From Desulfuromonadales bacterium (GTDB lineage Bacteria; Desulfobacterota; Desulfuromonadia; Desulfuromonadales; JACZKF01), in assembly GCA_050485365.1 (NCBI GenBank), contig JBJHBH010000003.1, forward strand, positions 4,127-68,126: a DNA stretch of 64,000 nt, in the 5' to 3' direction. The notes below the pieces were generated by a model, which saw nothing but the letters and a program-made list of their open reading frames with translations, made no database searches and had not been told where the DNA came from. A program made the translations under genes and the position numbers. The number at the start of each line of letters is the position of its first letter. Position 1 is the stretch's first letter. Below, one piece after another: positions 1-30,017 of the stretch.

Positions 1-880
1 GCACCGAAAGGTCCCCTGTGACCTCCGCATCGATGCGCTCGGCGCTCGTCATCCCGTCGCTCCAACGCACGAAATGGTACCCTCGGCGGGGGACCGCCGT
101 GACGTTGCCCCCATTCTCGCCGTGAAAGATCCGCTGACGGGAATCCCCCTCGATCCACCCCTCCTCGTCGGCCGCATAATCGAGGGTGTATTCGTTAATG
201 CGAAAAAGCGCCGTCACGGCGACTTCGCCCCTCACGTCCCTCTCCCTTCGGGGATTCTCCGCCGAACCGTCGCTCCACCCAGCGAAATGATGGCCGACGG
301 CCGGAACCGCCCGAACGACGCTCCCACTGCCGCCGTAATCCACCCGCTGCCGGGTCGCCCCTTCGATGGAGCCGTTCTCTGCGGGCGCGTAGGTGACATC
401 GTACTGGTCGACGGCGAAAAGAGCGCTCACCGACAGATCGCCTGTCACATCTTGGTCGGTACGGGGGTTCGCCGTCGTTCCGTCGCTCCAGCGCACGAAA
501 TGGTGATGCTCGGCCGGCACGGCCTGCACCGCACTCCCCGCTCCCCCACGCGATACCTGCTGATGCGCCTCACCGACGATGGCCCCCCTCCCCTCGACGA
601 GATAGCTCAGGGTGTGTTGCCTTTGCGCAGCCTCCTCTACGGCTTCGACTGTTATCGCAGCGGATTCGTCCTCCGGAGCCTGCGCCGGCGTCTCCACCGA
701 TTCCGACCCCGCGCCCCCAGTCGCATCCAAAGAAGCGATCTCGGCAGTTTTTTCCACCAGCACAATCCCATCCGATGACGCAGAAGAGGGTGCGGCGGTC
801 TCGCCGCTGCACCCAACCGAAAGGGATCCCAGCAAAAAACATGCTGCCCATTTGACGATCAGGTATTTTGGGTTAGGCAC
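1..880 (-). CDS. Lipoprotein with three InlB B-repeat (Listeria-Bacteroides repeat)-like domains; the 3' end runs off the window
   Basis: Not in the ORF track, so I translated the minus strand by hand from the GTG at 880. It reads MPNPKYLIVKWAACFLLGSLSVGCSGETAAPSS, a signal peptide with lipobox LSVGC. Three repeats follow, each carrying an HF(V/A)(R/G)WSDG motif: AEHHHFVRWSDG, AVGHHFAGWSDG and RRGYHFVRWSDG. The plus ORF 74..778 is its antisense shadow. Confidence 0.6.
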   Translation of the reverse strand, partial: MPNPKYLIVKWAACFLLGSLSVGCSGETAAPSSASSDGIVLVEKTAEIASLDATGGAGSESVETPAQAPEDESAAITVEAVEEAAQRQHTLSYLVEGRGAIVGEAHQQVSRGGAGSAVQAVPAEHHHFVRWSDGTTANPRTDQDVTGDLSVSALFAVDQYDVTYAPAENGSIEGATRQRVDYGGSGSVVRAVPAVGHHFAGWSDGSAENPRRERDVRGEVAVTALFRINEYTLDYAADEEGWIEGDSRQRIFHGENGGNVTAVPRRGYHFVRWSDGMTSAERIDAEVTGDLSV

Positions 881-1024: not shown

Positions 1025-2170
1025 TTACGGCACCCTCCGCTGCCCTTTGGCCGTGTGGCAGGCGAAACACCCCTTTCCTTCGGCATCGCCGGCGTCGCCG
1101 GACACCATTCTGCGGAAATCGAAACGCAGCATGCCATCATACGGGCCTGCATGGGCCAGATGGCATGAGAGACACATGACCAGATCCTGGCCCGGGAAGA
1201 CCTGATCGCTGGGCTCGTCATAGACCCAGGGTCTGGCCACCGGCGCGGTCACCTCGTAGAAGATGTATTCGGCGTATTCTCCCCGATCGGGAAGGACGAA
1301 ATCAGAGGGGTGCCTCAGGAAAGCCAATGTGACGGGGAGTCGTTGGGTATGAAAGTCACCGTGGCAGGTCATGCAGAAACCGCTCATGCTGTTCCGCGGA
1401 GTGTCTATATAAGAATAGGGAGTCGCATTGGTGGAACCGTAATGGCAGGTCGAACAGTGTTGATCGTCGGAAGGACGGTGAGGGGCTCCGAAATATTCGT
1501 TGTGAATCATGGGGGTGACATTCTGCCACCGGTCGGGATAGGGATAGGGGTTTTCGAGCCCACGCACCCCCATTAGAAAGCGGAAGCTGTTGGCGACCAT
1601 ATCGGCCACCTTCAAGGCTCCGTCTTCATTGGCGTGATGAGCGCCGATGATGGCACTCATCCCGACACGATGAACCAGTCTCCCCTCACTGTCCTCCATC
1701 AATTGGTTTCTTAGCCCGTGACAGCCGCTCGCGCCGGCACAGGTGAGCCTGTTCTTGAAATAGATGGGGTTTTCCCCATGCACGAAGCCGGGGGGGAAAA
1801 TGAGGACATCGTCTCCACCGGGGAATATGTCGATGACGTCGTGCCCTTTTCGGCTCCCCGGCACGCCGACGCCCAGCTTGGCACCGGAGATGTAAGCGAA
1901 ATTCCCGCCGGCCAGGTCCCCCCGGCTGTCGGTGTGATACACCTGAGGGACCTGAGTTCCCCCAGGCATGATCACAATTCGCTCGTCTATTCCCAACGCA
2001 TGACAGGTGACACAGTCGACCCCCCACAGATACCCGGAAGAATCTTCTATGGCGCTGTCGGTGTGGCAATCGATGCAGTTATCCCCGATCTGAGCCAGAG
2101 CAACGTGAGAAAGAAGAAAGAACCATGCCGCGGCGACAGCACACAAACTCCATTTCACCGTCTTTTGCAT
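1025..2170 (-). CDS. OmcS-family multiheme c-type cytochrome, divergent paralog
   Basis: Signal peptide, six CXXCH motifs (CIDCH, CVTCH, CSTCH, CMTCH, CLSCH, CFACH) and one CX5CH (CAGASGCH). It shares blocks with the other three paralogs and with OmcS as I remember it: SRKGHDVID, FLRHPSD, MCLSCHLAHAGPYDGMLRF and a C-terminal CFACHTAKG. SD GGAGGA lies 4 nt before the ATG. Confidence 0.8.
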   Translation of the reverse strand: MQKTVKWSLCAVAAAWFFLLSHVALAQIGDNCIDCHTDSAIEDSSGYLWGVDCVTCHALGIDERIVIMPGGTQVPQVYHTDSRGDLAGGNFAYISGAKLGVGVPGSRKGHDVIDIFPGGDDVLIFPPGFVHGENPIYFKNRLTCAGASGCHGLRNQLMEDSEGRLVHRVGMSAIIGAHHANEDGALKVADMVANSFRFLMGVRGLENPYPYPDRWQNVTPMIHNEYFGAPHRPSDDQHCSTCHYGSTNATPYSYIDTPRNSMSGFCMTCHGDFHTQRLPVTLAFLRHPSDFVLPDRGEYAEYIFYEVTAPVARPWVYDEPSDQVFPGQDLVMCLSCHLAHAGPYDGMLRFDFRRMVSGDAGDAEGKGCFACHTAKGQRRVP

Positions 2171-2173
2171 CAG

Positions 2174-2295: not shown

Positions 2296-2327
2296 GCGGC
2301 GGCCTCAATGTGCACGTCTTCATTTTC

Positions 2328-2355: not shown

Positions 2356-2375
2356 TCCAGAGTCGCCCCCGAGAA

Positions 2376-2408
2376 TGAAAAAACCGGCCCAAAGAGACAC
2401 GGCCGGTT
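2376..2408 (-). terminator. Rho-independent terminator after the sulfatase-GDPD gene
   Basis: Minus-strand RNA AACCGGCC-GUGUCUCUUUG-GGCCGGUU followed by UUUUUC, about 50 nt after the stop at 2458. Confidence 0.7.
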
Positions 2409-2457
2409 CAGGTAATTTTGTTCGGCCAGAAGGTGGTCCGACCTTAATCTTCGTTTT

Positions 2458-5247
2458 TTATTCCGGCACAAGGAAATCTGTATAAATGCCGTTCACTCCA
2501 AGTTCCTGCAATTCTGTGAACAAATGGGGGTCATTGACCGTGTGGGCGTATACAAAAATGTTCCACGGCTTGATCATCTTGGCCATGCCCATCTGGGCCA
2601 GCCTCCAGTGCATTGTGATGGCAAATGGCTTCTTCTTGGACGAAAAGGACACCAACTGATAGGGATCGAGCTCCATTCGGTAAAGTGTGAGAATGATGTC
2701 GTCATACCCCAACGCTTCAGCTTTCTCATATTCCGCATAGCTGTAGACCTGCGGGATCACATACCCTATGAACTCCCTCCTCTCGCGAATCAATTTTTCG
2801 AGAGCCTTGACGTTTTCGTCCTTGATATCCGTAATGATATACGCATCCCCTTTTTCTCTCGCCCAATCCAATACTTGCGAGATGGTGAGCTGCGTCAGGC
2901 CATTCCTAGGTGTGAGTTGCAAAAACTCATTCTTTGTCAGCACACCTTGATATTTCGGGAGATGGAAGCGCCTTTTGAGCGATTCTTCCCAGTCATGAAT
3001 GGCAACGAGCTCACCATCTTTTGTCCAGGAAAAATCAATCTCGAAGTACCTAAATCCAAGGTCGTAGTTCAGGTTGAGAGCTTCCACGCTGTTGGTATAG
3101 GTCTGATTTTCTATACCTCCGCCAGCATGCGCGACATAGGCTGGTGGAGAGATCCCTCGAGGGGCGGTTAATGATTGCAGGAAACTCTCCCTCTGCTCAA
3201 CAACTCTAAATTCCGTCTCAGCCTTTTTTATCGAAGCAATTGTATCTGCTGGAATAGAAAAACTATCATCGAGGACACCCCAGAGATTTCTGGTACTCCC
3301 GGGTTTGCCGAAAAAACCGCATAACTGTAGGGGATGAACCCGCTCAAAATCGCAAAATCCCGGCAGATTCATTGCGTGACTTATCGCAAAAACCAGATCA
3401 TCTGCATGCTGCAGCAATATACTGCTCAGAGTTGTATTGTCCATCCCTTGGTCAAAGGGGAAGGAATGGATGTCCTTGAGCTTGAGCGTTGTACTGTCGA
3501 AGAGGAAGATCGTCGACGCGATACTTCCAGGAAGCCCCTCAGAGCTTATGTCGAAGATTCTGTTGCCGATCGTTATGCTCAAATCTTCCATATCGACCTT
3601 GAAGTCCATGCCCTCGAGCGACACGTCATCATCCCAGAGCGCTGCAGCGACGGCGTTCAGGGCCGGTGCTTTCTCACGCCATCTCTTTTCTCCGAATTTT
3701 CTGATCAGATACCCCGGAGCCTTCACCAGGGATGACCCGAAACCGAGCTGCCCCTTGAGCTCATAGCCGAGCAGATCGAGGATGGTGGGAGCGACGTCAT
3801 AGTGAATTCCCGGATGGGAATTTTCACCAATGGGACCGTTCGGCACGTTGACGAAGAAAGTCAGTTTTGGGGGGGCCGTCGACTCCTCCAGGAGAGACGA
3901 AGCGGTATTGCGCATGGCCAGATGGTCGCTGAAGACTGCGACGATGGTGTTGTCCGAGAATGGCGAGGACCTGATCCGATGGATGAACCGGCTTACCAGT
4001 TTATCCGCGCAGTGAACTGAATCGAGCATCGGATTGTCTGTCGTCTTAATTTCGCTGCAGGTCGGAGAAAGATGCCCTCTCGGAGGGTGGGTATCCAACG
4101 TCAGCAGTGTCAGCATAAAGGGCTGTTGCTGTGAGCTCAGGGATATGAATTTTTCAAAAGCGAGATCCAGGAGGATATCATCGTAAATACCCCATGAATT
4201 CAACGGAATAGCATCGCCAAGGGTATCGAGAATTTCCTGCCTGTCGATTACTTCGGAATATCCGTGCGACCGGAGGAAATTACCCTTGCCTGCAAATCGC
4301 TCGTCCGCCCCTCCCATATACGCCAGATGGTATCCGTCTGTTGTGAGGAGATCTCCCAGGCAGACGGCCCCTGGCATGAAACTGTCGTAAATTCCGAAAC
4401 TATTCCCCTTTATATTGTGTCCCCCCGCAAGTGGGTATCCGCACTGGGAGGCCACAAAACCACCCATCGTCCACCCGGCACCGACCCCCTGGGCAACACG
4501 GCTGAAGACCAGGGACTCGTCCTTAATTCGTTTCAGTTCAGGGAGAAGTCCAGGGAAAACCGCTTCATCAAAATACCGCTGCTCAATACTCTCCAGATAA
4601 ATCAGAACGAGATTGTATCGATCGGCTCCCTTGAACGAAGCGTTTACACTACCTGTCAGTTCCGGAAATTCGTCATATGCCAGGGAAGATCCATTTAATC
4701 TAGCAGACTGCATATGTTCGAACAGGGAACCAGCGGGAGGCGAGATCAAAATCCCGGAGAGAAAAAGCGCCAAACAGCCGTACCCATACCTTCCGTTTCG
4801 GTTAAGGCTCCTGTGGATTTGAAAGCAGGAAGTGGATATGTAAAGCAGAAAAGCTATAACCAGGAGGACGATGGGAAGAGTAAATTCGCCCAACCCTGAA
4901 TGGAGCAGATCGGGGCGAAGATGGTAGAAAAAAGCCTCGTTGAACCCGGCGTTCTGCAGATAATAGCTGGCAAGAAAAGCACCTTCCATAACAAAAAGTG
5001 CTGTGCCGAGAAGAATGAAAAAGAGCAGATTCACACGTCTTCGGGGGAAGTTCGAGAACGCGTATATCAGGCCTGCTGTATACATGAGGACCGAGATCGG
5101 CCAGATTAGCGGGGCATCCGTTGATGCAATGCCGAAAAGGCTTAAATAAAATGGAAAGCCTGACCCAGCGAGAGTCCAAATCTCTTCTTGTGAATATCTG
5201 ATCCCTAATGCCGAGAGACGTAATTGTGTCAACTTTCTATCCTCCAC
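2458..5247 (-). CDS. Membrane-anchored sulfatase-family phosphotransferase (OpgB/MdoB/LtaS-like) fused to a C-terminal GDPD-like phosphodiesterase domain
   Basis: 929 aa. The N-terminal ~170 aa are hydrophobic multi-pass. The central domain has an LTLDTHPP nucleophile-type motif typical of LtaS/OpgB sulfatase-fold enzymes. The C-terminal ~250 aa (AHAGGGIENQTYTNSVEAL..FRYFEIDFSWTKDGELVAIHDWE) resemble glycerophosphodiester phosphodiesterase. GC content is low. Confidence 0.65.
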   Translation of the reverse strand: MEDRKLTQLRLSALGIRYSQEEIWTLAGSGFPFYLSLFGIASTDAPLIWPISVLMYTAGLIYAFSNFPRRRVNLLFFILLGTALFVMEGAFLASYYLQNAGFNEAFFYHLRPDLLHSGLGEFTLPIVLLVIAFLLYISTSCFQIHRSLNRNGRYGYGCLALFLSGILISPPAGSLFEHMQSARLNGSSLAYDEFPELTGSVNASFKGADRYNLVLIYLESIEQRYFDEAVFPGLLPELKRIKDESLVFSRVAQGVGAGWTMGGFVASQCGYPLAGGHNIKGNSFGIYDSFMPGAVCLGDLLTTDGYHLAYMGGADERFAGKGNFLRSHGYSEVIDRQEILDTLGDAIPLNSWGIYDDILLDLAFEKFISLSSQQQPFMLTLLTLDTHPPRGHLSPTCSEIKTTDNPMLDSVHCADKLVSRFIHRIRSSPFSDNTIVAVFSDHLAMRNTASSLLEESTAPPKLTFFVNVPNGPIGENSHPGIHYDVAPTILDLLGYELKGQLGFGSSLVKAPGYLIRKFGEKRWREKAPALNAVAAALWDDDVSLEGMDFKVDMEDLSITIGNRIFDISSEGLPGSIASTIFLFDSTTLKLKDIHSFPFDQGMDNTTLSSILLQHADDLVFAISHAMNLPGFCDFERVHPLQLCGFFGKPGSTRNLWGVLDDSFSIPADTIASIKKAETEFRVVEQRESFLQSLTAPRGISPPAYVAHAGGGIENQTYTNSVEALNLNYDLGFRYFEIDFSWTKDGELVAIHDWEESLKRRFHLPKYQGVLTKNEFLQLTPRNGLTQLTISQVLDWAREKGDAYIITDIKDENVKALEKLIRERREFIGYVIPQVYSYAEYEKAEALGYDDIILTLYRMELDPYQLVSFSSKKKPFAITMHWRLAQMGMAKMIKPWNIFVYAHTVNDPHLFTELQELGVNGIYTDFLVPE

Positions 5248-5259
5248 TACATTGAATTC

Positions 5260-7311
5260 TCAATTGCTAACTAGCTCTTCCGAGATATTTCTGACTCTCA
5301 GAACCCTCGCAACCGGCCAGGCATTATAAATCTCCTCAAAGTAGCGCCGATCGTAATTGCCTAGGATGTACTGCTGGTTGAAGTTGCTCCAGAAGAGGCG
5401 GTCTTCGACTATCTGGATCTGAATTATCTCATTGTTCGCAATGAGGATCTGCAAATAATATCGAGCATTAGGGTGAAAGTCCTCCCTGGTGGTCACCTGC
5501 CCATCCTTGATAATCAACACTGCGACGAGGGGAACGTCTATAGTACCGTCGCTGATAATCCCCCGGTTTAGATCTGCAATTCCTTCTTGGCATTTGAATT
5601 TATTTCCGACGAGGGAAAAGCAATTCCATTGCTCATACCACATCATTTGATCAACCCGCTCTTCGAAGTCCCAAGTTCCGAAAGTGGATATCGATCCGAA
5701 TTTTGAAATCATGTCTTCGGTATAGAGGACATGAACTTTCTCTACGGTGAGATGCCCGGGGTAAGAAAAGACCATTCTTTTCAGATTCTCCCCCGATAAA
5801 TTTTCATCCACAATGAGAGAGTACAGCGAATCAAAACCGTTCTCCTCGACGTAAGAAAGCATAGAGACCATCTCCTCCTGTCGAGGAGAGGTCATCGTCT
5901 TGGCGATCAGTGTAGTTCGCAGTCCTCCATGAAGTGCTCCATCGTGATAGGTGGCGAACTGCCCGATTTCCATCAAGGGGTACCCCATATCCCACCAAGT
6001 GAACATGGCCGAGTGTTTGGGAACGAGTTGCTTGATTTCCAGGATCGCGCGTGTCGTAGATGCCGGGACGATAGCCGAAGGTTGACGATCGAATCCGGTA
6101 TGTACCGCGGTAGAGAAAAAGAGCATGAGCATGAGAGAAACAGTAGCGAAAGTGCCGTACATTGGTTTCAGTCGGATTTTCGCTCCGACCCTATTCACCA
6201 GGAGTTCAATCAACACTCCAACACCGATTCCGATGAAGGGGGCCAGATACATAGCGAACCGTCTGGGGCCAAAAAGCGACCAGAGCCCAAGGAGGATCAG
6301 CGGAGTGATGGGAATCATCTGCCGGAAGCGAAATATGTAGAGACAACAAAGCCCTACAAAGCCGGCCAAAACAATGGGGAGAAATCCGTGAATGTTTTTG
6401 AGCGCCTCCAAGGGGTCATTAATCCTCTGAGCCTCCTCGATCAAGGCCATCACGTTCGGCCAGACGATCTGCCCGGATGGGGAAGGGAAGAAATAAGCCT
6501 GGATAAAGATAGATAGTGAATTGACGCTCTGCGCTGCATAACCTGGGCCCGAAGCCAGTGTGAATACCAGCAATATTCCTAAAATCTGCCGCCATGGCAT
6601 GCAAATCGACAACAGGTATGCAGCTATGAAAAAGAGATAGACCAGCATGAAGCCCGGCTGTTCATACCACCAATTGAACAGATACATCATCGCGCCGGCG
6701 CCGGCGGCCAAACCGAGGTTTGCGCGGACGGATCGAGCGCTACTCATTGGCAGAGTGAAACAAGCCACTGCTAGAGGGAAGAAAATATTCAGTAAGTCGG
6801 TATCTAGATAGCCCATCCAACTTCGTTGGTAATAGGCCACACTGAAAATGCCGATCAATCCGCCCAGAACCGCCGCAGCCCCAAAACCTAACCTGTGGAA
6901 ATAAAAAAAGAGGGGAAAGATGAAAAGTCCACCCAGAATTGAAACGAGCAGCAGTCCGGAACGGTAATAATCGCCCCCAGTGAAGTTCGCGCAAAAGCTG
7001 ACAAGCCAGGCCAGCAGGTTGGGGTCGAAATATTCGATCAGATCGGGATACCCCTTTGTGGGATTGAGTAAACCCTTTCCGAGGTTACCTGCATCGAGAT
7101 CCCGAGCCATCTTCAGCCAGTGGTAGGCATCCATGGACGACATGGCCGTCACATGGCCCACAAAGTATTCATCTCCCTGCACCATCCATTGCTGGTAGCT
7201 CTCTTCTTTCTTGTAGACAGAGAGTCCATAAACAACCAGAACAAACGCGAAGACTACCAGGGTTGTCCGGTTGTTCAGAATTAGAATTCGCAAATCACCC
7301 ATAGTCCTCAC
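5260..7311 (-). CDS. PglB/STT3-type oligosaccharyltransferase
   Basis: 683 aa and polytopic. The motifs occur in the PglB order: SSMDAYHWLKMARD (cf. NDGYAFAEGARD), YLDTDLL (DxD), ALIEEA (TIxE-like loop) and FTWWDMGYP (WWDxG). A soluble C-terminal domain follows. Low GC. A 12-nt gap to the next gene suggests an operon. Confidence 0.7.
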   Translation of the reverse strand: MRTMGDLRILILNNRTTLVVFAFVLVVYGLSVYKKEESYQQWMVQGDEYFVGHVTAMSSMDAYHWLKMARDLDAGNLGKGLLNPTKGYPDLIEYFDPNLLAWLVSFCANFTGGDYYRSGLLLVSILGGLFIFPLFFYFHRLGFGAAAVLGGLIGIFSVAYYQRSWMGYLDTDLLNIFFPLAVACFTLPMSSARSVRANLGLAAGAGAMMYLFNWWYEQPGFMLVYLFFIAAYLLSICMPWRQILGILLVFTLASGPGYAAQSVNSLSIFIQAYFFPSPSGQIVWPNVMALIEEAQRINDPLEALKNIHGFLPIVLAGFVGLCCLYIFRFRQMIPITPLILLGLWSLFGPRRFAMYLAPFIGIGVGVLIELLVNRVGAKIRLKPMYGTFATVSLMLMLFFSTAVHTGFDRQPSAIVPASTTRAILEIKQLVPKHSAMFTWWDMGYPLMEIGQFATYHDGALHGGLRTTLIAKTMTSPRQEEMVSMLSYVEENGFDSLYSLIVDENLSGENLKRMVFSYPGHLTVEKVHVLYTEDMISKFGSISTFGTWDFEERVDQMMWYEQWNCFSLVGNKFKCQEGIADLNRGIISDGTIDVPLVAVLIIKDGQVTTREDFHPNARYYLQILIANNEIIQIQIVEDRLFWSNFNQQYILGNYDRRYFEEIYNAWPVARVLRVRNISEELVSN

Positions 7312-7576
7312 CTCAGACGAATCACAAGACCCGCTCTACCTCCAGTGCAGCCGTCAGCAGACGGCCACAATCGACCTCATCCCCCCCGAGAAACTCCGCA
7401 GGAAAGAATGAGAAATTGACTTAATCGCCAGAAACAGGGGGTCCGCCATCATTGAGTTCACTTCGAAAATCGTTGACTCTATGAAGCGAACTGGGTTAAA
7501 AGTGACCAAAGATTAACATATGATAATTATTTTGGTCTAGTCTTTTTGCAACCCATTTGCATGCCGCAGGGAGCCC

Positions 7577-8968
7577 ATGAAAAAACTGAATGTCCTCTGG
7601 AGATTTTTCGCATCGGTTAAGCTGGCCCTGTTCACGATCTTTCTGCTCGCCGGCACCTCGATCATCGGGACGGTCGTCCAGCAGGGGCAGGCTCCAGCCC
7701 ATTACGTCGAGGAGTACGGTGAGACGCTGGCCCGCGTCTTTCAGCTCCTCGACATTCCGACCATGTACAGCTCCTGGTGGTTTATCACCCTGCTGACCCT
7801 TTTCGCCGTGAATCTCATCGTCTGCAGCATCGAGAGGCTCCCCGCCTCCTGGCGCATGGTGACGCATGAATCGCGCGCGCCCGACTATGAGCGCCTGGAA
7901 AAAATGAACTCGAAGCACCGGGCGGACACCGCCCTGCCGACAGGCATCGTGGCTACGAGAATGCAGGAGCTTCTATCGGCTGCCGGGTGGCGCAAGAGCA
8001 CGCGACTGGAGAGGGATGGCTCAACCGTCCTCTTCGCCCAGCAGGGCGCCTGGACCCGATTCGGCGCGCACATCGTCCATCTGAGCATTCTGGTGATCTT
8101 TGCCGGTGTTCTGATCGGAAACCTTTTCGGCTTCAAAGCGTACGTCTTCCTCCCGGAGATGAGGGCGACGACCAACATATTCCTGCAGAGCAATCGCGAG
8201 CCCGTCCCCCTCGATTTCGAGCTCTACTACGAACGGTTCGAAATGGCTCTCTACCCCGACGGATCGATCCGCGAGTACCGCTCCGAGCTGACGGTGTACG
8301 ATCCGCAGCGCGCGCAGCCGTACGAAAAGACCTCCATCGTCAACGACCCGCTCAGATACAACGGAATCGCCTTTTACATCGCCGACAACTATCCCCTCGA
8401 GGAGTATTTCATTACCATTCAAAACCGAACCACCGGCGAAAAGCAGTCCTTTCGCGTCCCGCCGGATTATCTGGTCACATGGCCGGAAACGGAGATTTCC
8501 TTCAGCATCGAAGAGCTCAGGCAAAACCAGGAAGGGGCGACGCAGCAGGCAAAAATCTCGTTCTCCGACGGTTCCGGCTCCGACCCGTCGGTCTTCTGGA
8601 TGAACAACAAAGGGACGGTGACGATAAAAGGGCCTGGGGACGAATTCACATTTTCATTCCACCAGCTCTACACCACCCTCTTCCTGGCCAACAAAGACCC
8701 CGGAGTCATGGTCGTTTATGCTGGATTTTTCCTGATGGTCATCGGCCTCTGCATCAGCTTTTTCCTCTCCCACCAGCGGATCTGGGTGTACATCGCCCCC
8801 AAGGAGCAGGGATCGCGGATCCTGGTCAGCGGACTCAGCAACAAGCACCAGCCCGCTTTCGAGCGCCGTTTTCAGGAACTCATCGCCCGAATCAAGCAGG
8901 ACGAGCCGATCGTCACAACGGTGCCGAAAGCGGCCAAGCCGCTAAAGAAGCGCCGTGCGGCTGCTTGA
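7577..8968 (+). CDS. resB: Cytochrome c biogenesis protein ResB/Ccs1 (System II)
   Basis: The N-terminus MKKLNVLWRFFASVKLALFTIFLLAGTSIIGTVVQQ is typical of ResB. It is followed by a large periplasmic domain and C-terminal TM helices. No resC/ccsA is adjacent. Confidence 0.85.
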   Translation: MKKLNVLWRFFASVKLALFTIFLLAGTSIIGTVVQQGQAPAHYVEEYGETLARVFQLLDIPTMYSSWWFITLLTLFAVNLIVCSIERLPASWRMVTHESRAPDYERLEKMNSKHRADTALPTGIVATRMQELLSAAGWRKSTRLERDGSTVLFAQQGAWTRFGAHIVHLSILVIFAGVLIGNLFGFKAYVFLPEMRATTNIFLQSNREPVPLDFELYYERFEMALYPDGSIREYRSELTVYDPQRAQPYEKTSIVNDPLRYNGIAFYIADNYPLEEYFITIQNRTTGEKQSFRVPPDYLVTWPETEISFSIEELRQNQEGATQQAKISFSDGSGSDPSVFWMNNKGTVTIKGPGDEFTFSFHQLYTTLFLANKDPGVMVVYAGFFLMVIGLCISFFLSHQRIWVYIAPKEQGSRILVSGLSNKHQPAFERRFQELIARIKQDEPIVTTVPKAAKPLKKRRAAA

Positions 8969-9143: not shown

Positions 9144-10397
9144 CTAGAACCTCCCCCCATGATGATGGCAGTCCCGGCACGAGACGACCTCCCAGTCGTC
9201 GCCGGGGCCGAGATAACCGGGTTCGCCGTGAAGCTGGGTTATGTAGTCCCGGTTATGGCAACGGACGCAGAGCGGCAGCAGATTGTTCGGCGCCGTCGCG
9301 GTGATGGTCTCACCGAGATTTCCACCGTTGACACGGCGCCGCAGGAGCATGATGTTCTGCGATCCGTGCGGCTCATGGCAATCGAGGCATGACATAACGA
9401 AATTGTTCTTGGTCGAAGAAGCCGCAAGATAGGGCTCGGCCCACCGGGGAGTCTCGTAGCTGTACGGATGCCCCTCTCTCGGGCGGGCGCCGTGCTTGTC
9501 CTGATTCTCTCCGGTCGTCCCCCAGTTGATCCTGCGCAGATTGCGGTTCAGGGTCGTGCTCCAGATGGTATTTGCGGGGTTGTGGCATTCGGTGCAGAAG
9601 CCGACGTAATCCGGCGTCTTGGCCCCGTCCGCGTCGCCGACGCCGGCCGGCTCACGGCTGAGATCGAAGACGTAGGGCGCCTCGTAGGAGAGGTACGAAG
9701 CCATCAGCTCCGTTTCTCCCCAGAGCCGTGAGCGATCGCTCGGTTTTGAGATGGCGCTCAGCAGGGGGAAGCCCGGCTTTGAACTGTCCCCGTTGCGCCT
9801 CGCGAGATGGGGATTGTGGCAGGCACTGCAGGGGTTGCTGTGCTCATCGAACCACGGGTAGGCCGTGTTGGTTCGAGCGTAGTTCCAGATGTCGAAGAGG
9901 TTGTGGTATGACTCCTGATTGAACGCCTCCAAAATAGACTGCGGACCGCTTCCGGACGCAGCCCCCCCGAACGTCGCGCTGTAATCCTGATTTATCACCT
10001 GCTGACCCGAGTCGCCGCTGTGACAGAAGAAACAGAAGTTGTCCGTCTCCATATAGAGGTTCTGGGTGCGTGCCGAATTGAAATTGCGATAGAAGAGTAC
10101 GTAAGGTGCCCCCCCGCTTAAGGGTTGCGGCGCCGCGCCGTCGAAGCTGGCGTGCATCTGGTGGCAGTGGGCGCAGTTGCCTGTGGCATACTCAGCGAAT
10201 CTCGGCTCGATGGCAGAGCGGTTTACGCCGTGCATCCCGTCGCCGTGGGCCGAGTTGCGGTACGTCCCCCCCCAGAGCGGTGCGGCGACAACGAGTCCGA
10301 GCATTGCGGCGAAGAGCGTGATGACGATCGCGCGACCTGATCCGACCTTGTCGCGCAGAAATGGCCGCCCGATCTTCGAAGCGTTACGATGATCCAT
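9144..10397 (-). CDS. Multiheme c-type cytochrome, 7 CXXCH
   Basis: I place the start at MDHRNASKIGRPF (10397) with a TM/signal segment AIVITLFAAMLGLVVAAP. Motifs are CAHCH, CFFCH, CSACH, CTECH, CLDCH, CVRCH and CRDCH. The first motif is CHQMH. The start overlaps the upstream stop by 14 nt. The longer track ORF (to 10814) is read-through of the upstream gene. Confidence 0.8.
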   Translation of the reverse strand: MDHRNASKIGRPFLRDKVGSGRAIVITLFAAMLGLVVAAPLWGGTYRNSAHGDGMHGVNRSAIEPRFAEYATGNCAHCHQMHASFDGAAPQPLSGGAPYVLFYRNFNSARTQNLYMETDNFCFFCHSGDSGQQVINQDYSATFGGAASGSGPQSILEAFNQESYHNLFDIWNYARTNTAYPWFDEHSNPCSACHNPHLARRNGDSSKPGFPLLSAISKPSDRSRLWGETELMASYLSYEAPYVFDLSREPAGVGDADGAKTPDYVGFCTECHNPANTIWSTTLNRNLRRINWGTTGENQDKHGARPREGHPYSYETPRWAEPYLAASSTKNNFVMSCLDCHEPHGSQNIMLLRRRVNGGNLGETITATAPNNLLPLCVRCHNRDYITQLHGEPGYLGPGDDWEVVSCRDCHHHGGRF

Positions 10398-11766
10398 CGC
10401 TCTGCCCCTCTGCGTCATCGCCGAAATCGGCCGGTGGGAATTCTTCGACAATCTCCTCGACGATCTCTTCACCTTCAAAATCGTCGTCGCTCGTCGGAGC
10501 GTCCTCTTCAGGCATCGCTTCAACCGCCTCACTCTCCTCCCCTGATTGTTGCGCAGGGGGCGGCGGCGCTGAGAAGAGGGGGAATTCCGGAATGTAATCG
10601 ACGTCCAGGACCTGCACTCTGCGGTTGAAGAGGTCGGAGACGATGAGCTGCCCCTCCCGGTTGATGGCGAGATCCGAGGGGAAATTGAACCAACCCGGCG
10701 CCTCCCCCCGACCGCCGACTTCGAACTGGAATCTTCCCGACAGATTGTAGGCGAGAATGGTGTGGCGCATGAAATCGGCCACGTAAATAAGGCCGCGCTC
10801 CTCATCAATAACAAGGCCGCGGGGCTGACTCAGCCTGCGGGGGCCTCCCCCCTTTTCACCAAAGGAAAAAAGGAACGTCTCATCGGCGCTGTAGACATAG
10901 ACCTTGCTCGTTTCGGCGCTGACCAGATAGAGATTGCCGGCCCTGTCGATGACCACATTGCGCACCCTGACGGGGCCGAGGCCGGGGCCGGATCGAGCTT
11001 CTTCTTCCTGCTGACGGCTTCTGGGACGAAACTCTTCGGGGATATCGCCTCGGGATCTCTGCCTGGCTTCGATTTCGTCCTCCAGAGCCTTCTTATCCTG
11101 CTGCGCCGCAAGCCGTTCGGCCGCGGCGGCGACCGCCTCGCGATCGGCGATGACATCCATCGGCTCAAGCATGCGAAGAAAGGTTCCGTCGCCGTCGAGT
11201 ACGATGACCCCCCTGCTCGATTCGCCCGTCAGGTAGATCAGCCCGTCGCGGCTCACCGCCAGCTTGCCGGGAGAGAAATTTGCGAGATTGGGGATGTCGT
11301 CGAGCAAAATCTCCCGGTCGACAAAAAAAGCGGCATTCAGGATGGTGATGCGGGGGGTCGGGTTCGCCGCCGAGCGGCTCTGGGTGACGTAGACTCTGCC
11401 GTCCGGCGCTACATGCATTCCTCGGGGGGCGAAAACGCCGCGTCCGGCTCCGATCGATACGCGAGGGTAAAAGTCCGGCCCGTAGACCACCACCCGGGCG
11501 CTGCCGCCATTGACGAGATAGATTTCCTCCTCGATCGGATCGTAAAAGACGGACGAAGGATAGTTCAGTAACCGTCCATCGTCATCCGTGGTGATCTGCG
11601 CGATGGAGATGGCCGGATAGGACGCCAGGCCCGGCGCCGGAGCGAAAAAGGCGAGCAGGCACAGCACAAAAGCCCCCAAACCCAAGAGGCGCCGGCCGCG
11701 ATTCCGTGACTCAAAAGGGCTGTGACCCCTTCTCTCGGCTCTATCTGTGACATCGACTGCAGACAT
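10384..11766 (-). CDS. NHL-repeat beta-propeller protein with a charged insert and an acidic C-terminal tail
   Basis: Signal/TM segment LLGLGAFVLCLLAFFAPAPGLA. NHL-type blades include GRVYVTQ, GLIYLTGE, GNLYLVSAE, GLIYVADF and GQLIVSDLFNRRVQVLD. The tail reads EESEAVEAMPEEDAPTSDDDFEGEEIVEEIVEE. I prefer the start MSAVDV at 11766 (GGGGAGG upstream); the alternative is 11814. Confidence 0.75.
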   Translation of the reverse strand: MSAVDVTDRAERRGHSPFESRNRGRRLLGLGAFVLCLLAFFAPAPGLASYPAISIAQITTDDDGRLLNYPSSVFYDPIEEEIYLVNGGSARVVVYGPDFYPRVSIGAGRGVFAPRGMHVAPDGRVYVTQSRSAANPTPRITILNAAFFVDREILLDDIPNLANFSPGKLAVSRDGLIYLTGESSRGVIVLDGDGTFLRMLEPMDVIADREAVAAAAERLAAQQDKKALEDEIEARQRSRGDIPEEFRPRSRQQEEEARSGPGLGPVRVRNVVIDRAGNLYLVSAETSKVYVYSADETFLFSFGEKGGGPRRLSQPRGLVIDEERGLIYVADFMRHTILAYNLSGRFQFEVGGRGEAPGWFNFPSDLAINREGQLIVSDLFNRRVQVLDVDYIPEFPLFSAPPPPAQQSGEESEAVEAMPEEDAPTSDDDFEGEEIVEEIVEEFPPADFGDDAEGQSDGSS

Positions 11767-12904
11767 GGCCTCCCCTACCGTCGGCAAACAAAATGTATCT
11801 GTAGGATGACCCATGAGGATCGTGGCAGCTCACGCAGGTGAGCTTGCGTCCCGGTCGCCGCCTCTCCGACGGTCCCTCGACCGGGTGCCCCCCTACAGGG
11901 TGTCCCCGCCTGATGCCGACGTATCCCTGATGACAACTGACGCAGAGCTCGTTTATCGAATCGTGAAGTATCGCTTCGTGATCCGACGCATGCGGATCGT
12001 GACAGGACACGCACCCCTTCGGCCCGTGGAGAATGCCGTGAGTGAAGCGCGCCCCGTTTCTTTGTATCAGACTTTCCATATCGCTGTGGCAGGCGATACA
12101 GAGATCGGACGCCCCCCCTGCCCAGAGCTGATATCTGTTCTTGTCGCCATGGGGGTTGTGACAGAGAGTGCAGCCGCCGGCGACCATCGGGCCATGGATG
12201 CTTTTTCGAGAGCGCCAATCCTTTTTTCCGGTGTGGCAGGCGACGCAGGTCTCCTCGATCTTTCCCGTCGGAAACCCGACGCGAAACGGCTGCGCGAACT
12301 GCTGATGGCATGCGAGGCATTGCTTGTTGACCGACGTGCTGTGCTGCCATGGCGATTGTTCGAGAAGGTTGCGATGGCAGCTCGCGCACGATTCCTGCGC
12401 CCGAAGACCGACCGGCTCCACGGGGGTGGTTTTTTGCAGATCGTGGCATTGGGCGCAGATGTGGGGGAGTTGGCCGTTTCGGTGAAAGAGATAGACGTCG
12501 CTCCCCAGGGTATTCGGATTCAAGGCGGCGCGCACGGGACGGTAATTGATTACCAGCCGCTCCGCGCCGGGGTGAATGGTAAAGCTGTTCAGGTTTGGCT
12601 GAAGGGGGAGTCGGAAGTGGAGATAATTATCGTTCAGAATTTCCCTGACCACCGCCGGGTCGACCCTCCTTTCGTTCGCCTCCACCCAGACCTGGGAGCC
12701 TTCCCTGTGTGGCCGGCGCACCACGAGGTGAGCCTCCGCATGCCTGCCGACGATCGTTGCGCCGGAAGGTGGGGTCAGAATCTCGATACCGGAGGCGAAA
12801 GCCAAGTTTCTGGCCGAGATGCCCTCCAGCCCAAACTGGCACAGAAGGACCAGAAGAAAGCTGAAGACGGCCCGGGCCGGAGTTGAGCATCTATAACGGT
12901 CCAT
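11741..12904 (-). CDS. Multiheme c-type cytochrome, 10 CXXCH, with an N-terminal non-heme domain
   Basis: I take the start at MDRYRCSTPARAVFSFLLVLL (12904), which avoids overlap with the upstream gene. About 150 aa are heme-free. They are followed by CAQCH, CASCH, CLACH, CVACH, CTLCH, CIACH, CVSCH x3 and CSRCH. Confidence 0.8.
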   Translation of the reverse strand: MDRYRCSTPARAVFSFLLVLLCQFGLEGISARNLAFASGIEILTPPSGATIVGRHAEAHLVVRRPHREGSQVWVEANERRVDPAVVREILNDNYLHFRLPLQPNLNSFTIHPGAERLVINYRPVRAALNPNTLGSDVYLFHRNGQLPHICAQCHDLQKTTPVEPVGLRAQESCASCHRNLLEQSPWQHSTSVNKQCLACHQQFAQPFRVGFPTGKIEETCVACHTGKKDWRSRKSIHGPMVAGGCTLCHNPHGDKNRYQLWAGGASDLCIACHSDMESLIQRNGARFTHGILHGPKGCVSCHDPHASDHEAILHDSINELCVSCHQGYVGIRRGHPVGGHPVEGPSERRRPGRKLTCVSCHDPHGSSYRYILFADGRGGHVCSRCHR

Positions 12905-12945
12905 AAAGAATCCATTACTGAAGGCAAAGATTTCCCTTTTTCCTA

Positions 12946-14406: not shown

Positions 14407-14418
14407 ACTCCTTAAAAA

Positions 14419-15510: not shown

Positions 15511-15611
15511 TCCGAGACCCTTAAAGCGAGGACGGAGGACAGAGGACGGAAGACAGCAAGACCTGCATCCACGAGTCCAAGTTCCACACAGCAAAACAAC
15601 GGACAACTTGC

Positions 15612-15667
15612 GGCCGCGAAGCGGCCTGACACCGCGAAGCGGTTGACGCCGCTTTAGCGGCCTGACA
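15612..15667 (-). repeat. Three tandem short GC hairpins with a repeated GCGGCCTGACA; probable terminator or processing site
   Basis: GGCCGC-GAA-GCGGCC, CCGC-GAA-GCGG and GCCGC-TTTA-GCGGC. GCGGCCTGACA occurs at 15621 and 15657. The element lies directly after the stop of the NHL gene. Confidence 0.35.
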
Positions 15668-16555: not shown

Positions 16556-16581
16556 GCGCTATCCCCATATGTGTTTCGTAG

Positions 16582-16655
16582 GGGCGGACCCCTGTGTCCG
16601 CCCTTTGCGGGAATCTTCTTACGCCGGTGAACAGGGCAGGCACAGGGGCCTGCCC
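16582..16655. repeat. Pair of GC-rich hairpins (REP-like)
   Basis: GGGCGGAC-CCCTGT-GTCCGCCC (16582-16603) and GGGCAGGC-ACAGGG-GCCTGCCC (16634-16655), between the 16-heme gene stop and the NHL gene start. Confidence 0.5.
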
Positions 16656-16693
16656 CTACCAACTCCTAACTCCCAACTTCTGGCTCCTGCTTC

Positions 16694-28343: not shown

Positions 28344-28418
28344 ACCGTATGAGAAACGATCATTCACATTTGGATGTTCAACCTGTGAGAATGCCTGATG
28401 CGCTCCCATTTAAAGTAG

Positions 28419-29773: not shown

Positions 29774-30017
29774 TTCGACTTCCTCCATTCATTTCCATTT
29801 GGTTGTGGCAGCTCAAAAACCCTCCTCCATTTTCCCACCTGATACATGGGCCGGCACTCCCGACGATCCGGGAGGGGAGAACCCGGTCAAGCCTCCTTCT
29901 TTTCTTTCGTCTCTACTCACCTCCTTTCCGGCGTTTTTTGCCTTAGCGATACCTGCCGACACATTGCAGCAATCCGTATCCCCCCAGAAATGAAGTGTGC
30001 ATTTGCGCAGCGTCCTA

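What the first reader, a model, noticed from the sequence alone, without database searches (positions are those of the whole stretch)
5260..7311. PglB/STT3-type N-oligosaccharyltransferase without a pgl locus, beside secreted cytochromes
The catalytic motifs occur in the PglB order: MDAYHWLKMARD, DTD, ALIEEA and WWDMG. Yet no glycosyltransferases, flippase or sugar-biosynthesis genes are adjacent. The only partner is a sulfatase-fold transferase.

Bacterial PglB-type sequons (D/E-x-N-x-S/T) occur in neighbouring OmcS-type proteins. DTNGT is in 27009-28343, within HSSGDTNGTSGAFLRHP. DANFS is in 14419-15510. That is only weak support.

Glycosylation of extracellular cytochrome filaments has been reported for archaeal examples. 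A bacterial equivalent would be new.
Basis: partly seen in the sequence, partly recalled or inferred. Interest (0 to 1): 0.65.

Follow-up and report, generated by a model that had tools for sequence, protein, structure and literature searches.

The report
PglB-like glycosyltransferase with phosphoglycerol-transferase partner
The gene encodes an intact but distant bacterial relative of the enzyme that attaches sugar chains to protein asparagines, paired in several genomes with a glycerol-phosphate transferase, but nothing here shows that it glycosylates the neighbouring cytochromes, and glycosylated bacterial cytochromes are already known.

Summary
ORF 5260-7311 (probable ATG at 7302, 680 aa) carries MDAYHWLKMARD, LDTDLL, ALIEEA and WWDMG in PglB order. 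It is an STT3/PglB-family enzyme: Pfam STT3 passes its cut-off, a family profile matches C. lari PglB full length (7.5e-45), and the model superposes on PglB (TM 0.80). ArnT and PMT score far worse. The catalytic Asp, Glu and Arg positions are invariant in 28 homologues. It is not a PglB orthologue (85 bits against a cut-off of 1300, about 18% identity).

There are no glycan-synthesis genes in the 64 kb, but relatives sit in glycan loci. The sulfatase-fold neighbour is an OpgB/LtaS-type phosphoglycerol transferase fused to a GDPD domain. It adjoins the STT3 gene in 5 loci, fused or split, in either order. A Flg_new_2/Lcl_C lipoprotein pair adjoins it in 13 of about 16 loci, and the cytochrome/NHL cluster in 6.

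Sequons are at chance: 3 observed against 3.1 expected in exported proteins. The Arg that sets PglB's -2 rule is Asn here. N-glycosylated D. gigas HmcA and glycan densities on Geobacter OmcS/OmcE filaments are already published.

Best reading: an N-oligosaccharyltransferase whose glycan is decorated with glycerol phosphate. The substrates are unproven.

The parts
5260..7302 (-). STT3/PglB-family single-subunit oligosaccharyltransferase homologue, 680 aa. The ORF opens at GTG 7311; the probable start is ATG 7302. Residues and motifs: D58 in MDAYHW (7099-7134); R160; D167-T-D169 (6790-6807); E290 in ALIEEA (6430-6447); R348 in GPRRFAMY (6247-6270); WWDMG (5983-5997); HDG (5923-5949); two invariant periplasmic Cys (5590-5625).
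2458..5247 (-). OpgB/LtaS-type phosphoglycerol (glycerol-phosphate) transferase fused to a C-terminal GDPD domain, 924-929 aa. It starts 12-27 nt after the STT3 stop codon. It has three N-terminal hydrophobic segments. The sulfatase-fold domain is about 3763-4614 and carries YLESIE, the GAGWT nucleophile Thr and FSDH. The GDPD domain is about 2461-3150 and carries AHAGGG, FEIDF and AIHDW.
   Evidence: Adjacent to the STT3 gene in L081, L082, L083 and L084
1025..2170 (-). Secreted hexahaem c-type cytochrome (6 CXXCH, signal peptide) downstream of the pair. A 67%-identical orthologue directly follows the STT3 gene in L077. Similarity to OmcS is weak (E 0.0017).
1..880 (-). 5' part (293 codons) of an 819-aa Flg_new_2 (InlB B-repeat) / Lcl_C (DUF1566) lipoprotein gene that runs off the left edge. 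Outside the window it is followed by a 177-aa secreted Lcl_C protein. This pair is the most constant neighbour of this STT3 clade.
7303..7576 (.). 274-bp divergent intergenic region between the STT3 gene and resB. It is the presumed promoter region; the consensus scan was uninformative.
7577..8968 (+). ResB (CcsB) cytochrome c biogenesis protein, transcribed divergently from the STT3 gene. resB also lies near the STT3 homologue in L077 and L012.
9144..17881 (-). Context: a cluster of multihaem cytochromes alternating with NHL/beta-propeller proteins (9144-10814, 10384-11814, 11741-12994, 12946-14406, 14419-15606, 15668-16555, 16694-17881). The ORF coordinates run from the first possible start codon and so overlap. 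Orthologous blocks adjoin the STT3 gene in D. alkaliphilus (L001), L077, L012 and L084.

Best explanation
The ORF 5260-7302 (minus strand) encodes a catalytically intact single-subunit oligosaccharyltransferase. It belongs to a distinct, experimentally uncharacterised bacterial STT3/PglB clade found in Desulfuromonadia, Desulfobulbia and relatives.

Shown: the fold, the conserved catalytic residues, and family membership.

Inferred:
- In the periplasm it transfers a lipid-linked glycan, assembled by genes elsewhere in this genome, to Asn side chains of exported proteins.
- The co-transcribed downstream enzyme is an OpgB/LtaS-type transferase with an intact Glu/Thr/Asp-His site, fused to a periplasmic GDPD domain. 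It then decorates that glycan, on protein or as released free oligosaccharide, with glycerol phosphate taken from phosphatidylglycerol. The GDPD domain trims or edits the phosphodiester.
- The Flg_new_2/Lcl_C lipoprotein and the small Lcl_C protein are the most likely dedicated clients or accessory factors.
- The adjacent cytochromes and beta-propeller proteins are possible clients.

The STT3/OpgB pair sits in a low-GC3 slot whose gene content varies between relatives. This behaves like a laterally exchanged glycan-diversity locus.
For: Family and activity:
- Pfam STT3 scores 26.9 against a cut-off of 24.5.
- phmmer matches PglB 3rce at 1.4e-13. The 28-sequence profile matches PglB at 7.5e-45 over residues 3-712, and human STT3B at 3e-4.
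- The AF2 model has pLDDT 90.4. Foldseek gives PglB TM 0.80 and E 1e-25, then AglB and STT3.
- D58, R160, D167, D169, E290, R348, the second Trp of WWD, and D454-G455 are invariant in 28 homologues.

Glycan-pathway context in relatives: Wzx, GT2, GT4, DegT, epimerases and rmlA-D lie next to the STT3 gene.

Partner:
- NCBIfam OpgB models score 2e-89 and 5e-87.
- The LtaS E255/T300/D475-H476 equivalents are conserved.
- The GDPD motifs are conserved in both fused proteins and split lipoproteins.
- The partner adjoins the STT3 gene in 5 loci. It is fused in the window, L081 and L084, and split in L082 and L083. The order is reversed, with a 4-bp overlap, in L081 and L084. The pairing spans both the WWD and the FWE subclades.

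Other neighbours: Flg_new_2/Lcl_C adjoins the STT3 gene in 13 of about 16 loci with at least 46% identity.

Composition: GC3 is 0.59 and 0.57 for the pair against 0.68-0.90 for the neighbours.

Precedents (established knowledge and papers): C. jejuni EptC adds phosphoethanolamine to N-glycans (own knowledge). Streptococcal GacH adds glycerol phosphate to GlcNAc side chains that a GT-C enzyme installed from GacI/GacJ-made Und-P-GlcNAc (10.1101/337519, 10.1101/180810).
Against: - No donor-pathway gene lies within 64 kb plus 4.7 kb.
- The PglB equivalog score is 85 against a cut-off of 1300.
- Sequons are not enriched in any neighbour. Conserved N-x-S/T sites in the Lcl_C proteins lie in motifs I recall as typical of DUF1566 domains in general, a recollection not tested here.
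- The OpgB-like partner is absent from about two thirds of related loci, including D. alkaliphilus.
- Some relatives have degenerate WWD motifs: FWE, HWG, EWS.
- There are no expression data. The only run holding the sequence is a DNA metagenome.
- The acceptor, the donor and the glycerol-phosphate step are all inferred.
Confidence: 0.55

Rival explanations
1. Free-oligosaccharide route. The STT3 enzyme mainly hydrolyses the lipid-linked glycan and releases free periplasmic oligosaccharides. The OpgB-like enzyme then substitutes these with phosphoglycerol. The result is a functional analogue of osmoregulated periplasmic glucans.
For: The partner's best family matches are OpgB, the enzyme that phosphoglycerylates periplasmic glucans. 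C. jejuni PglB releases free oligosaccharides that were likened to periplasmic glucans (Nothaft 2009, listed in PMC9561416; own knowledge). No client with enriched sequons was found. Some family members have degenerate WWD motifs.
Against: Hydrolysis by PglB is a side activity of a true protein glycosylase. The constant neighbours are exported proteins (Flg_new_2/Lcl_C), not osmotic genes. The window protein keeps WWD intact. The OpgB score is below its cut-off, 301 against 572.
Confidence: 0.13
2. Side-chain glycosylation of a non-protein polymer, on the GacI/J/L/H pattern. A GT2 plus DUF2304 pair makes a Und-P-monosaccharide. The STT3-like GT-C enzyme transfers that sugar to a polysaccharide or glycolipid, and the sulfatase-fold enzyme adds glycerol phosphate.
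For: A small GT2 plus DUF2304 (GacI/GacJ-like) pair, or GtrA plus GT2, lies beside the STT3 gene in L001, L007, L050, L077, L079, L082 and L083. GacJ is a DUF2304 protein, and GacI-DUF2304 fusions were noted in Geobacter, Desulfuromonas and D. alkaliphilus (10.1101/180810). GacH is a glycerol-phosphate transferase of the same fold (10.1101/337519).
Against: Every STT3-family member characterised so far glycosylates protein Asn (own knowledge). The peptide-binding WWD motif and the EL5 Glu are kept. R348, the equivalent of the pyrophosphate-binding R375, is invariant. No GT2/DUF2304 pair is present in this window.
Confidence: 0.12
3. This is a dedicated N-glycosylase of the neighbouring OmcS-type extracellular cytochromes, acting at D/E-x-N-x-S/T sequons.
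For: The same cytochrome/NHL/ResB block adjoins the STT3 gene in 6 loci. In L077 and L084 the arrangement is tight and on one strand, like an operon. DANFS in the protein at 14419..15606 is kept in D. alkaliphilus. Published precedent exists for glycosylated HmcA, OmcS and OmcE, and for glycosylation clusters beside cytochrome clusters next to resB (PMC4894442, PMC9473688, 10.1101/2025.10.22.684050).
Against: Sequons are at chance. The R331 equivalent is Asn. L082, L083, L078 and L003 have 10-kb flanks and no cytochromes. Lcl_C proteins are far more constant neighbours. Similarity to OmcS is marginal. Cytochrome genes are very numerous in these taxa, so adjacency carries less weight (own knowledge).
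Confidence: 0.12
4. Orphan or decaying gene. The pair is a laterally acquired remnant with no donor pathway in this genome and no function.
For: The pair has low GC3 relative to its neighbours. No glycan genes lie in the window.
Against: The ORF is full length and all catalytic residues are intact. The partner's active site is intact. The same module is maintained in many genomes.
Confidence: 0.05

Closest known systems
Campylobacter PglB (undecaprenyl-diphosphooligosaccharide--protein glycotransferase, GT66; PDB 3RCE, 5OGL)
   Same: Same overall fold, with TM-score 0.80 over about 700 columns. Same order of catalytic elements: D56, R147, D154/D156, E319, R375, WWD and DGG equivalents. It has a periplasmic C-terminal domain and is a single subunit.
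   Different: About 18% identity. It scores 85 bits against the 1300-bit equivalog cut-off. The R331 equivalent is Asn. No pgl genes are adjacent. Different conserved partners are present: OpgB-GDPD and Lcl_C proteins.
Desulfovibrio PglB homologues and N-glycosylated 16-haem cytochrome HmcA of D. gigas
   Same: A deltaproteobacterial single-subunit OST only 15-20% identical to CjPglB. It has relaxed or different acceptor rules. A multihaem cytochrome is a proven N-glycoprotein there, at N261 in TANGT (PMC4894442, PMC12229607).
   Different: The relationship of this clade to the Desulfovibrio enzymes was not tested here. HmcA is periplasmic, not an extracellular filament.
Streptococcal GacI/GacJ/GacL/GacH side-chain system
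   Same: The logic is the same: a GT2 plus DUF2304 lipid-sugar synthase, a periplasmic-face GT-C transferase, and a sulfatase-fold glycerol-phosphate transferase that uses phosphatidylglycerol (10.1101/180810, 10.1101/337519). GT2 plus DUF2304 and the OpgB-like gene co-occur with the STT3 gene in L082 and L083.
   Different: GacL is not an STT3 enzyme and its acceptor is polyrhamnose. This window has no GT2/DUF2304 pair. A GDPD domain is an added element here.
E. coli OpgB (MdoB) phosphoglycerol transferase I; C. jejuni EptC; N. meningitidis PptB
   Same: The sulfatase/LtaS-fold periplasmic domain follows N-terminal TM segments, and the Glu/Thr/Asp-His site is conserved. EptC decorates N-glycans with a phospho-head group, and PptB puts phosphoglycerol on pilin (own knowledge; PptB is mentioned in PMC5383330).
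   Different: The score is below the OpgB equivalog cut-off, 301 against 572. It is fused or paired with a GDPD domain whose HRG motif reads HAGGG. No opgGH genes were seen in the window.
Glycosylation gene clusters beside the OmcE nanowire cluster in Desulfuromonadia
   Same: Position next to resB, beside multihaem cytochromes and beta-propeller lipoproteins, with TPR proteins in relatives (10.1101/2025.10.22.684050).
   Different: That description lists GT2, GT4 and GT39 families, not STT3 (GT66). No clear OmcE was found here: the best OmcE 7tfs hit is E 0.044, while the protein at 11741..12994 looks like MtrA at 3e-11.

Membership tests
STT3/PglB/AglB oligosaccharyltransferases (GT66, Pfam PF02516) | Score above the curated family threshold | tested here: met
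   PF02516 scores 26.9 bits against a cut-off of 24.5, only just above. PF21436 (core domain) scores 20.7 against 23, so it is below. The family profile matches PglB at 7.5e-45 over the full length.
STT3/PglB/AglB oligosaccharyltransferases (GT66, Pfam PF02516) | GT-C fold with a multi-helix membrane domain plus a periplasmic C-terminal domain that superposes on solved OSTs better than on other GT-C families | tested here: met
   AF2 pLDDT 90.4 and pTM 0.87. Foldseek: PglB TM 0.80 and E 1e-25; AglB and STT3 E about 1e-11; ArnT 1e-4; DPY19 1e-4; PMT 0.14.
STT3/PglB/AglB oligosaccharyltransferases (GT66, Pfam PF02516) | Catalytic acidic residues and Arg: PglB D56, R147, D154/D156, E319 (EL5) and R375 | tested here: met
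   D58, R160, D167/D169, E290 and R348 are invariant in 28 homologues and align with the PglB residues.
STT3/PglB/AglB oligosaccharyltransferases (GT66, Pfam PF02516) | WWDxG motif that binds the +2 Ser/Thr of the sequon | tested here: met
   WWDMG lies at aa 436-440. In a sister subclade the motif reads FWE, HWG or EWS.
STT3/PglB/AglB oligosaccharyltransferases (GT66, Pfam PF02516) | MI or DK motif of the periplasmic domain | tested here: inconclusive
   EDMISKFG aligns with PglB's YRMLRIM region, but the register is uncertain.
STT3/PglB/AglB oligosaccharyltransferases (GT66, Pfam PF02516) | Demonstrated transfer of a lipid-linked glycan to Asn | not testable with these tools
   This needs biochemistry or glycoproteomics.
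PglB proper (NCBIfam NF050801 equivalog; Campylobacter-type pgl system) | Equivalog score at or above 1300 bits | tested here: not met
   85.3 bits.
PglB proper (NCBIfam NF050801 equivalog; Campylobacter-type pgl system) | Arg331 equivalent that imposes the D/E at position -2 | tested here: not met
   The aligned residue is Asn (LKNIHG), with a Lys before it. The column varies and is Arg in about half of the family. The loop alignment is uncertain.
PglB proper (NCBIfam NF050801 equivalog; Campylobacter-type pgl system) | Embedded in a pgl-like locus (initiating transferase, glycosyltransferases, flippase, amino-sugar synthesis) | tested here: not met
   None found in the 64-kb window or in 4.7 kb beyond it. 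Relatives do have Wzx, GT2, GT4 and DegT loci.
OpgB/LtaS-type glycerol-phosphate transferases (for the partner gene 2458..5247) | Sulfatase-fold domain with the metal-binding Glu, the nucleophilic Thr and the Asp-His pair, after N-terminal TM segments | tested here: met
   PF00884 at 1.8e-24. YLESIE, GAGWT and FSDH align with LtaS E255, T300 and D475-H476. There are three hydrophobic segments at aa 71-177.
OpgB/LtaS-type glycerol-phosphate transferases (for the partner gene 2458..5247) | OpgB equivalog score | tested here: not met
   NF009027 scores 301 against a cut-off of 572. NF003000 scores 293 against 574.
OmcS-type nanowire cytochromes (for the neighbours) | Significant similarity to OmcS, with six haems | tested here: inconclusive
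   Six CXXCH motifs occur in 1025..2170, 27009..28409 and 28487..29788. OmcS 6ef8 matches at E 0.0017 and 0.0039 only. The protein at 14419..15606 has 7 CXXCH and no hit.

The most novel reading that the evidence does not exclude
A conserved module of STT3-type oligosaccharyltransferase, phosphoglycerol transferase and GDPD phosphodiesterase makes glycerol-phosphate-decorated (anionic, teichoic-acid-like) N-glycans. With its Flg_new_2/Lcl_C lipoprotein partners, it places these glycans on surface proteins of metal- and sulfur-respiring Desulfuromonadia and Desulfobulbia, including components of the adjacent extracellular electron-transfer cytochrome cluster. This would be a previously undescribed N-glycan modification in bacteria. 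It would also give a genetic handle on how cytochrome-nanowire surfaces are glycosylated.
Probability: 0.2. Interest if true: 0.7.

Novelty: new variant of a known kind. Interest (0 to 1): 0.45.

Why it matters
Bacterial N-glycosylation is understood almost entirely from Campylobacter, plus a few Desulfovibrio enzymes.

This clade is roughly 120 near-full-length homologues at 44-73% identity, within a wider set of about 1,200 clusters at 50% identity. It keeps the catalytic machinery but has a different partner set.

If the OpgB-GDPD partner really acts on the transferred glycan, that would be a new glycan decoration. It would also add an OST with possibly relaxed sequon rules to the glyco-engineering toolbox.

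The recurring position beside resB and multihaem cytochrome/beta-propeller clusters makes a current question testable in cultured strains: which enzymes put the glycans seen on Geobacter cytochrome filaments? D. alkaliphilus carries the STT3 gene and the cytochrome cluster. Desulfuromonas sp. TF carries an STT3 gene and a sulfatase-fold gene on one contig.

If the pair turns out to be an ordinary general OST, the finding is a routine annotation.

Tried and rejected
1. Sequon enrichment. I counted D/E-x-N-x-S/T and N-x-S/T in all window proteins against composition shuffles, and in syntenic neighbours of four loci. There was no enrichment.

2. Conserved sequon columns. In Flg_new_2/Lcl_C there are three columns conserved in 9-11 of 11 sequences (SPNQT, GLNDT, RDNVT). 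They look like general DUF1566-type domain motifs, by my recollection of that domain and not by any test. The cytochrome orthologues gave too few sequences.

3. First tblastn for the OpgB-like partner. It found none in 76 genome-contig loci, and I nearly concluded that the pairing was unique to this window. Matching contig lengths between the two protein searches led to loci that show the pairing.

4. OmcE cluster identity. The best OmcE hit is E 0.044, and the protein at 11741..12994 resembles MtrA instead. The idea is not supported.

5. Promoter and terminator scan of 800-7700. Counts were at shuffle level.

6. Expression evidence. Only one DNA metagenome, from mine tailings, holds the sequence, and no RNA runs do (one search failed).

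7. Look-ups that were not on record: the Desulfuromonas sp. TF proteins P0037 and P0157, and the paper PMC2736414.

8. ArnT/PMT/other GT-C assignment. Rejected by the Foldseek ranking.
Full report
**1. Observation**

The finding's coordinates hold an ORF, but on the minus strand: 5260..7311, GTG start, 683 aa. The plus-strand translation is riddled with stops.
- An ATG at 7302, preceded by GAGGTGAGG, is the likely start and gives 680 aa.

**2. What the protein is**

Sequence evidence:
- Pfam STT3 N-terminal scores 26.9 bits against a cut-off of 24.5. The STT3/PglB core domain scores 20.7 against 23.
- phmmer against PDB finds only PglB chains, with 3rce at 1.4e-13.
- A 28-sequence family alignment (A1) used as a profile matches C. 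lari PglB end to end (residues 3-712) at 7.5e-45, and human STT3B at 3e-4.

Structure evidence:
- The AlphaFold2 model built on A1 is confident, with pLDDT 90.4 and pTM 0.87.
- Foldseek ranks PglB first (TM 0.80, E 1e-25), then AglB and eukaryotic STT3 (about 1e-11).
- ArnT and DPY19 reach only about 1e-4, and PMT 0.14.

Conserved residues. The residues that do the chemistry in PglB are invariant across the 28 homologues:

| This protein | PglB equivalent |
|---|---|
| D58 | D56 |
| R160 | R147 |
| D167 / D169 | D154 / D156 |
| E290 | E319 |
| R348 | R375 |
| second Trp of WWD | second Trp of WWD |
| D454-G455 | DGG motif |

Two periplasmic cysteines are also invariant.

Limits on the assignment:
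- It is not a PglB orthologue. The NCBIfam equivalog scores 85 bits against 1300, and structural-alignment identity is 18%.
- The residue aligned with PglB R331, which makes the salt bridge to the -2 Asp/Glu, is Asn here. The column is variable and is Arg in about half of the family. The extended bacterial sequon therefore cannot be assumed.
- Even Desulfovibrio enzymes that keep this Arg are relaxed (PMC4894442).

**3. Family and host**

- The word-index search returned 137 proteins. About 115 of them are near-full-length at 44-73% identity. Named members come from Desulfurivibrio alkaliphilus (64%), Desulfuromonas sp. TF (54%), Desulfuromusa, Thermodesulfobacteriota and Deferribacteres (45%). 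All are annotated only as 'STT3 domain-containing' or by automatic EC names.
- An exhaustive phmmer against 1.84 billion representatives gives 1239 clusters at E no more than 1e-3, and 195 at no more than 1e-30.
- More distant loci come from Nitrospirae, SAR324, Deferribacter, Thermosulfurimonas and others.
- The window comes from a mine-tailings metagenome.
- Its RnfC is 70-72% identical to Desulfuromonas species. The host is therefore a Desulfuromonadales bacterium, while its STT3 protein is closest to a Desulfobulbales one.
- The STT3 gene and its downstream gene have GC3 of 0.59 and 0.57, against 0.68-0.90 for neighbours. Similar dips occur in L077, L081 and L082. This is typical of laterally exchanged glycan loci (inference).

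**4. Surroundings in the window**

Pfam scans of all large ORFs found no glycosyltransferase, flippase or sugar-nucleotide gene in the 64 kb.

Downstream of the STT3 gene, 12-27 nt after its stop codon, lies 2458..5247 (minus strand). This gene encodes:
- three hydrophobic segments;
- a sulfatase-fold domain whose best family matches are OpgB/MdoB phosphoglycerol transferase (2e-89 and 5e-87, below the equivalog cut-offs);
- a C-terminal GDPD domain.

Alignment to LtaS structures shows the metal-binding Glu (YLESIE), the nucleophilic Thr (GAGWT) and the Asp-His pair (FSDH) all conserved. The GDPD domain has AHAGGG, FEIDF and AIHDW, lacking the Arg of the usual HRG motif.

The remaining neighbours are:
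- a hexahaem cytochrome at 1025..2170;
- from 880 leftward, the start of an 819-aa Flg_new_2/Lcl_C lipoprotein gene. A Logan contig that extends 4.7 kb beyond the window shows this gene followed by a 177-aa Lcl_C protein and a DegP-like gene;
- upstream and divergent, resB at 7577..8968;
- then a run of multihaem cytochromes alternating with NHL/beta-propeller proteins.

**5. Comparative context**

This changes the picture. Loci around homologues were obtained, and screened by tblastn.

(a) Glycan-assembly genes flank the STT3 gene in most relatives.

| Locus | Genes beside the STT3 gene |
|---|---|
| D. alkaliphilus (L001) | GtrA, GT2, Wzx, methyltransferases, DegT, GT4 |
| L078 | tandem STT3 pair, deacetylase, Wzx, WbqC, DegT, GT2 (three genes), GT4 |
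| L079 | epimerase, GT2-GtrA, Wzx, radical SAM |
| L081 | rml-type genes |
| L082, L083 | many GT2 and GT4 genes, GT2 plus DUF2304 |

So 'no pgl locus' is a feature of this window, not of the enzyme.

(b) The OpgB-like gene adjoins the STT3 gene in five loci.
- It is fused to GDPD in the window, L081 and L084.
- It is split into a sulfatase-fold gene and a GDPD lipoprotein gene in L082 and L083.
- The order is reversed, with a 4-bp overlap, in L081 and L084.
- It occurs in both the WWD and the FWE subclades.
- Equal contig lengths suggest two more cases, P0014/P0139 and Desulfuromonas sp. TF P0037/P0157. These are not verified.
- Fusion, fission and order change with retained adjacency argue for functional coupling.
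- The partner is absent from roughly two thirds of loci, D. alkaliphilus included.

(c) The Flg_new_2/Lcl_C lipoprotein plus small Lcl_C pair is the most constant neighbour, present in 13 of about 16 distinct loci with at least 46% identity.

(d) The orthologous cytochrome/NHL/ResB block adjoins the STT3 gene in six loci: the window, L001, L012, L077, L079 (one cytochrome) and L084.
- In L077 the order on one strand is cytochrome, ResB, TPR, STT3, cytochrome.
- In L084 the order on one strand is cytochromes, 180-aa protein, TPR, OpgB-GDPD, STT3, Flg_new_2/Lcl_C.
- Loci with full 10-kb flanks and no cytochromes also exist: L003, L078, L082 and L083.

**6. Sequons**

- Exported proteins of the window carry 3 D/E-x-N-x-S/T against 3.1 expected from shuffles.
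- Cytoplasmic proteins carry 4 against 1.3.
- N-x-S/T counts in exported proteins are 26 against 32.6 expected.
- Neighbours in three related loci show no enrichment either.
- The fully conserved N-x-T columns in the Lcl_C proteins (GLNDT, RDNVT, D-N-x-TGL-x-W) read like general motifs of the DUF1566 domain. That is my recollection of the domain, not a test.
- DANFS in the protein at 14419..15606 is kept in D. alkaliphilus, but within a region that is 69% identical.
- Sequons therefore neither support nor exclude any client.

**7. Mechanism**

Shown: an intact STT3/PglB-type catalytic site, and an intact LtaS/OpgB-type site in a co-oriented, almost abutting gene.

Inferred:
- The enzyme transfers a lipid-linked glycan made elsewhere in the genome to Asn of exported proteins.
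- The partner adds glycerol phosphate from phosphatidylglycerol to that glycan, and the GDPD domain edits it.

Analogies:
- EptC places phosphoethanolamine on Campylobacter N-glycans (own knowledge).
- GacH places glycerol phosphate on GlcNAc side chains. Those side chains are installed by a GT-C enzyme from Und-P-GlcNAc made by GacI/GacJ, and GacJ is a DUF2304 protein (10.1101/337519, 10.1101/180810).
- The latter paper notes GacI-DUF2304 fusions in Geobacter, Desulfuromonas and D. alkaliphilus.

Rivals are set out in the Rival explanations section: a free-oligosaccharide route resembling periplasmic glucans; a non-protein acceptor with a Und-P-monosaccharide donor; a dedicated cytochrome glycosylase; and an orphan remnant.

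**8. Novelty**

- The claim that bacterial cytochrome glycosylation would be new is wrong.
  - D. gigas HmcA is N-glycosylated (PMC4894442, PMC12229607).
  - G. sulfurreducens OmcS and OmcE filaments show glycan densities (PMC9473688).
  - A 2025 preprint describes glycosylation clusters (GT2, GT4, GT39, TPR proteins) following an OmcE cluster next to resB in Desulfuromonadia (10.1101/2025.10.22.684050).
- I could not show that this window's cluster is that OmcE cluster.
- I found nothing in the paper library on an STT3 enzyme paired with a phosphoglycerol transferase and GDPD, or with Lcl_C proteins. This covers only the held library.

**Verdict:** a real STT3/PglB-family gene. It is a new variant by its partner set, of moderate interest, and the cytochrome link remains unproven.

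Noticed in passing
window 1-880 (-), continued in L080 7851-10865: An 819-aa Flg_new_2 (InlB B-repeat) / Lcl_C (DUF1566) lipoprotein and a 177-aa secreted Lcl_C protein. This pair accompanies the STT3 clade in 13 of about 16 loci, more constantly than any glycan gene. Its role is unknown; it may be a client, a lectin-like accessory or an adhesin.
   Followed up: partly
window 7577-8968 (+): A ResB/CcsB cytochrome c biogenesis paralogue lies inside the cytochrome cluster with no recognisable CcsA gene next to it. It may be a dedicated haem-attachment factor for the neighbouring cytochromes.
   Followed up: no
window 11741-12994 (-): A cytochrome with 10 CXXCH motifs. Its best solved relative is the MtrA chain of the Shewanella MtrCAB complex (6r2q, E 3e-11), which suggests a porin-cytochrome type conduit. 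The ORF's true start is probably well downstream of the first GTG.
   Followed up: partly
window 16694-17881 (-) and 17878-19863 (-): Two very haem-dense cytochromes, with 16 CXXCH in 395 aa and 26 CXXCH in 661 aa. They are followed by a PPIase-domain protein at 19827-21452.
   Followed up: no
window 30337-31713 (-): A five-CXXCH cytochrome that also carries an OmpL47-type beta-barrel domain (NCBIfam 2e-19).
   Followed up: no
window 2458-7311: A low-GC island. GC is 0.49-0.50 and GC3 is 0.57-0.59, against GC3 of 0.68-0.90 for flanking genes. Similar dips occur at the STT3 or partner genes in L077, L081 and L082. The STT3 protein is closer to a Desulfobulbales enzyme (64%) than to Desulfuromonas sp. 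TF (54%), although the host looks like a Desulfuromonadales bacterium. This suggests lateral exchange.
   Followed up: partly
In the L078 pair (P0084 and P0086 in alignment A1) the WWD motif is degenerate, reading HWG and EWS. A large sister subclade has FWE. This hints at diverged acceptor recognition.
   Followed up: partly
window 2461-3150 (-) and L082 14202-14981, L083 14314-15099: The GDPD domain subfamily has AHAGGG in place of the canonical HRG motif. It occurs either fused to the sulfatase-fold enzyme or as a separate lipoprotein.
   Followed up: partly
window 32013-32528 (+) and 33529-34071 (-): A MNT-like nucleotidyltransferase gene and a HepT RNase gene, the two halves of a type VII toxin-antitoxin pair, are separated by an SDR gene and lie on opposite strands.
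   Followed up: no
window 34407-41794: A group of osmotic and ion-homeostasis genes: a BCCT betaine/choline transporter, a porin-like protein, an MscS channel and a P-type cation ATPase. It lies about 27 kb from the OpgB-like gene, and no link was shown.
   Followed up: no
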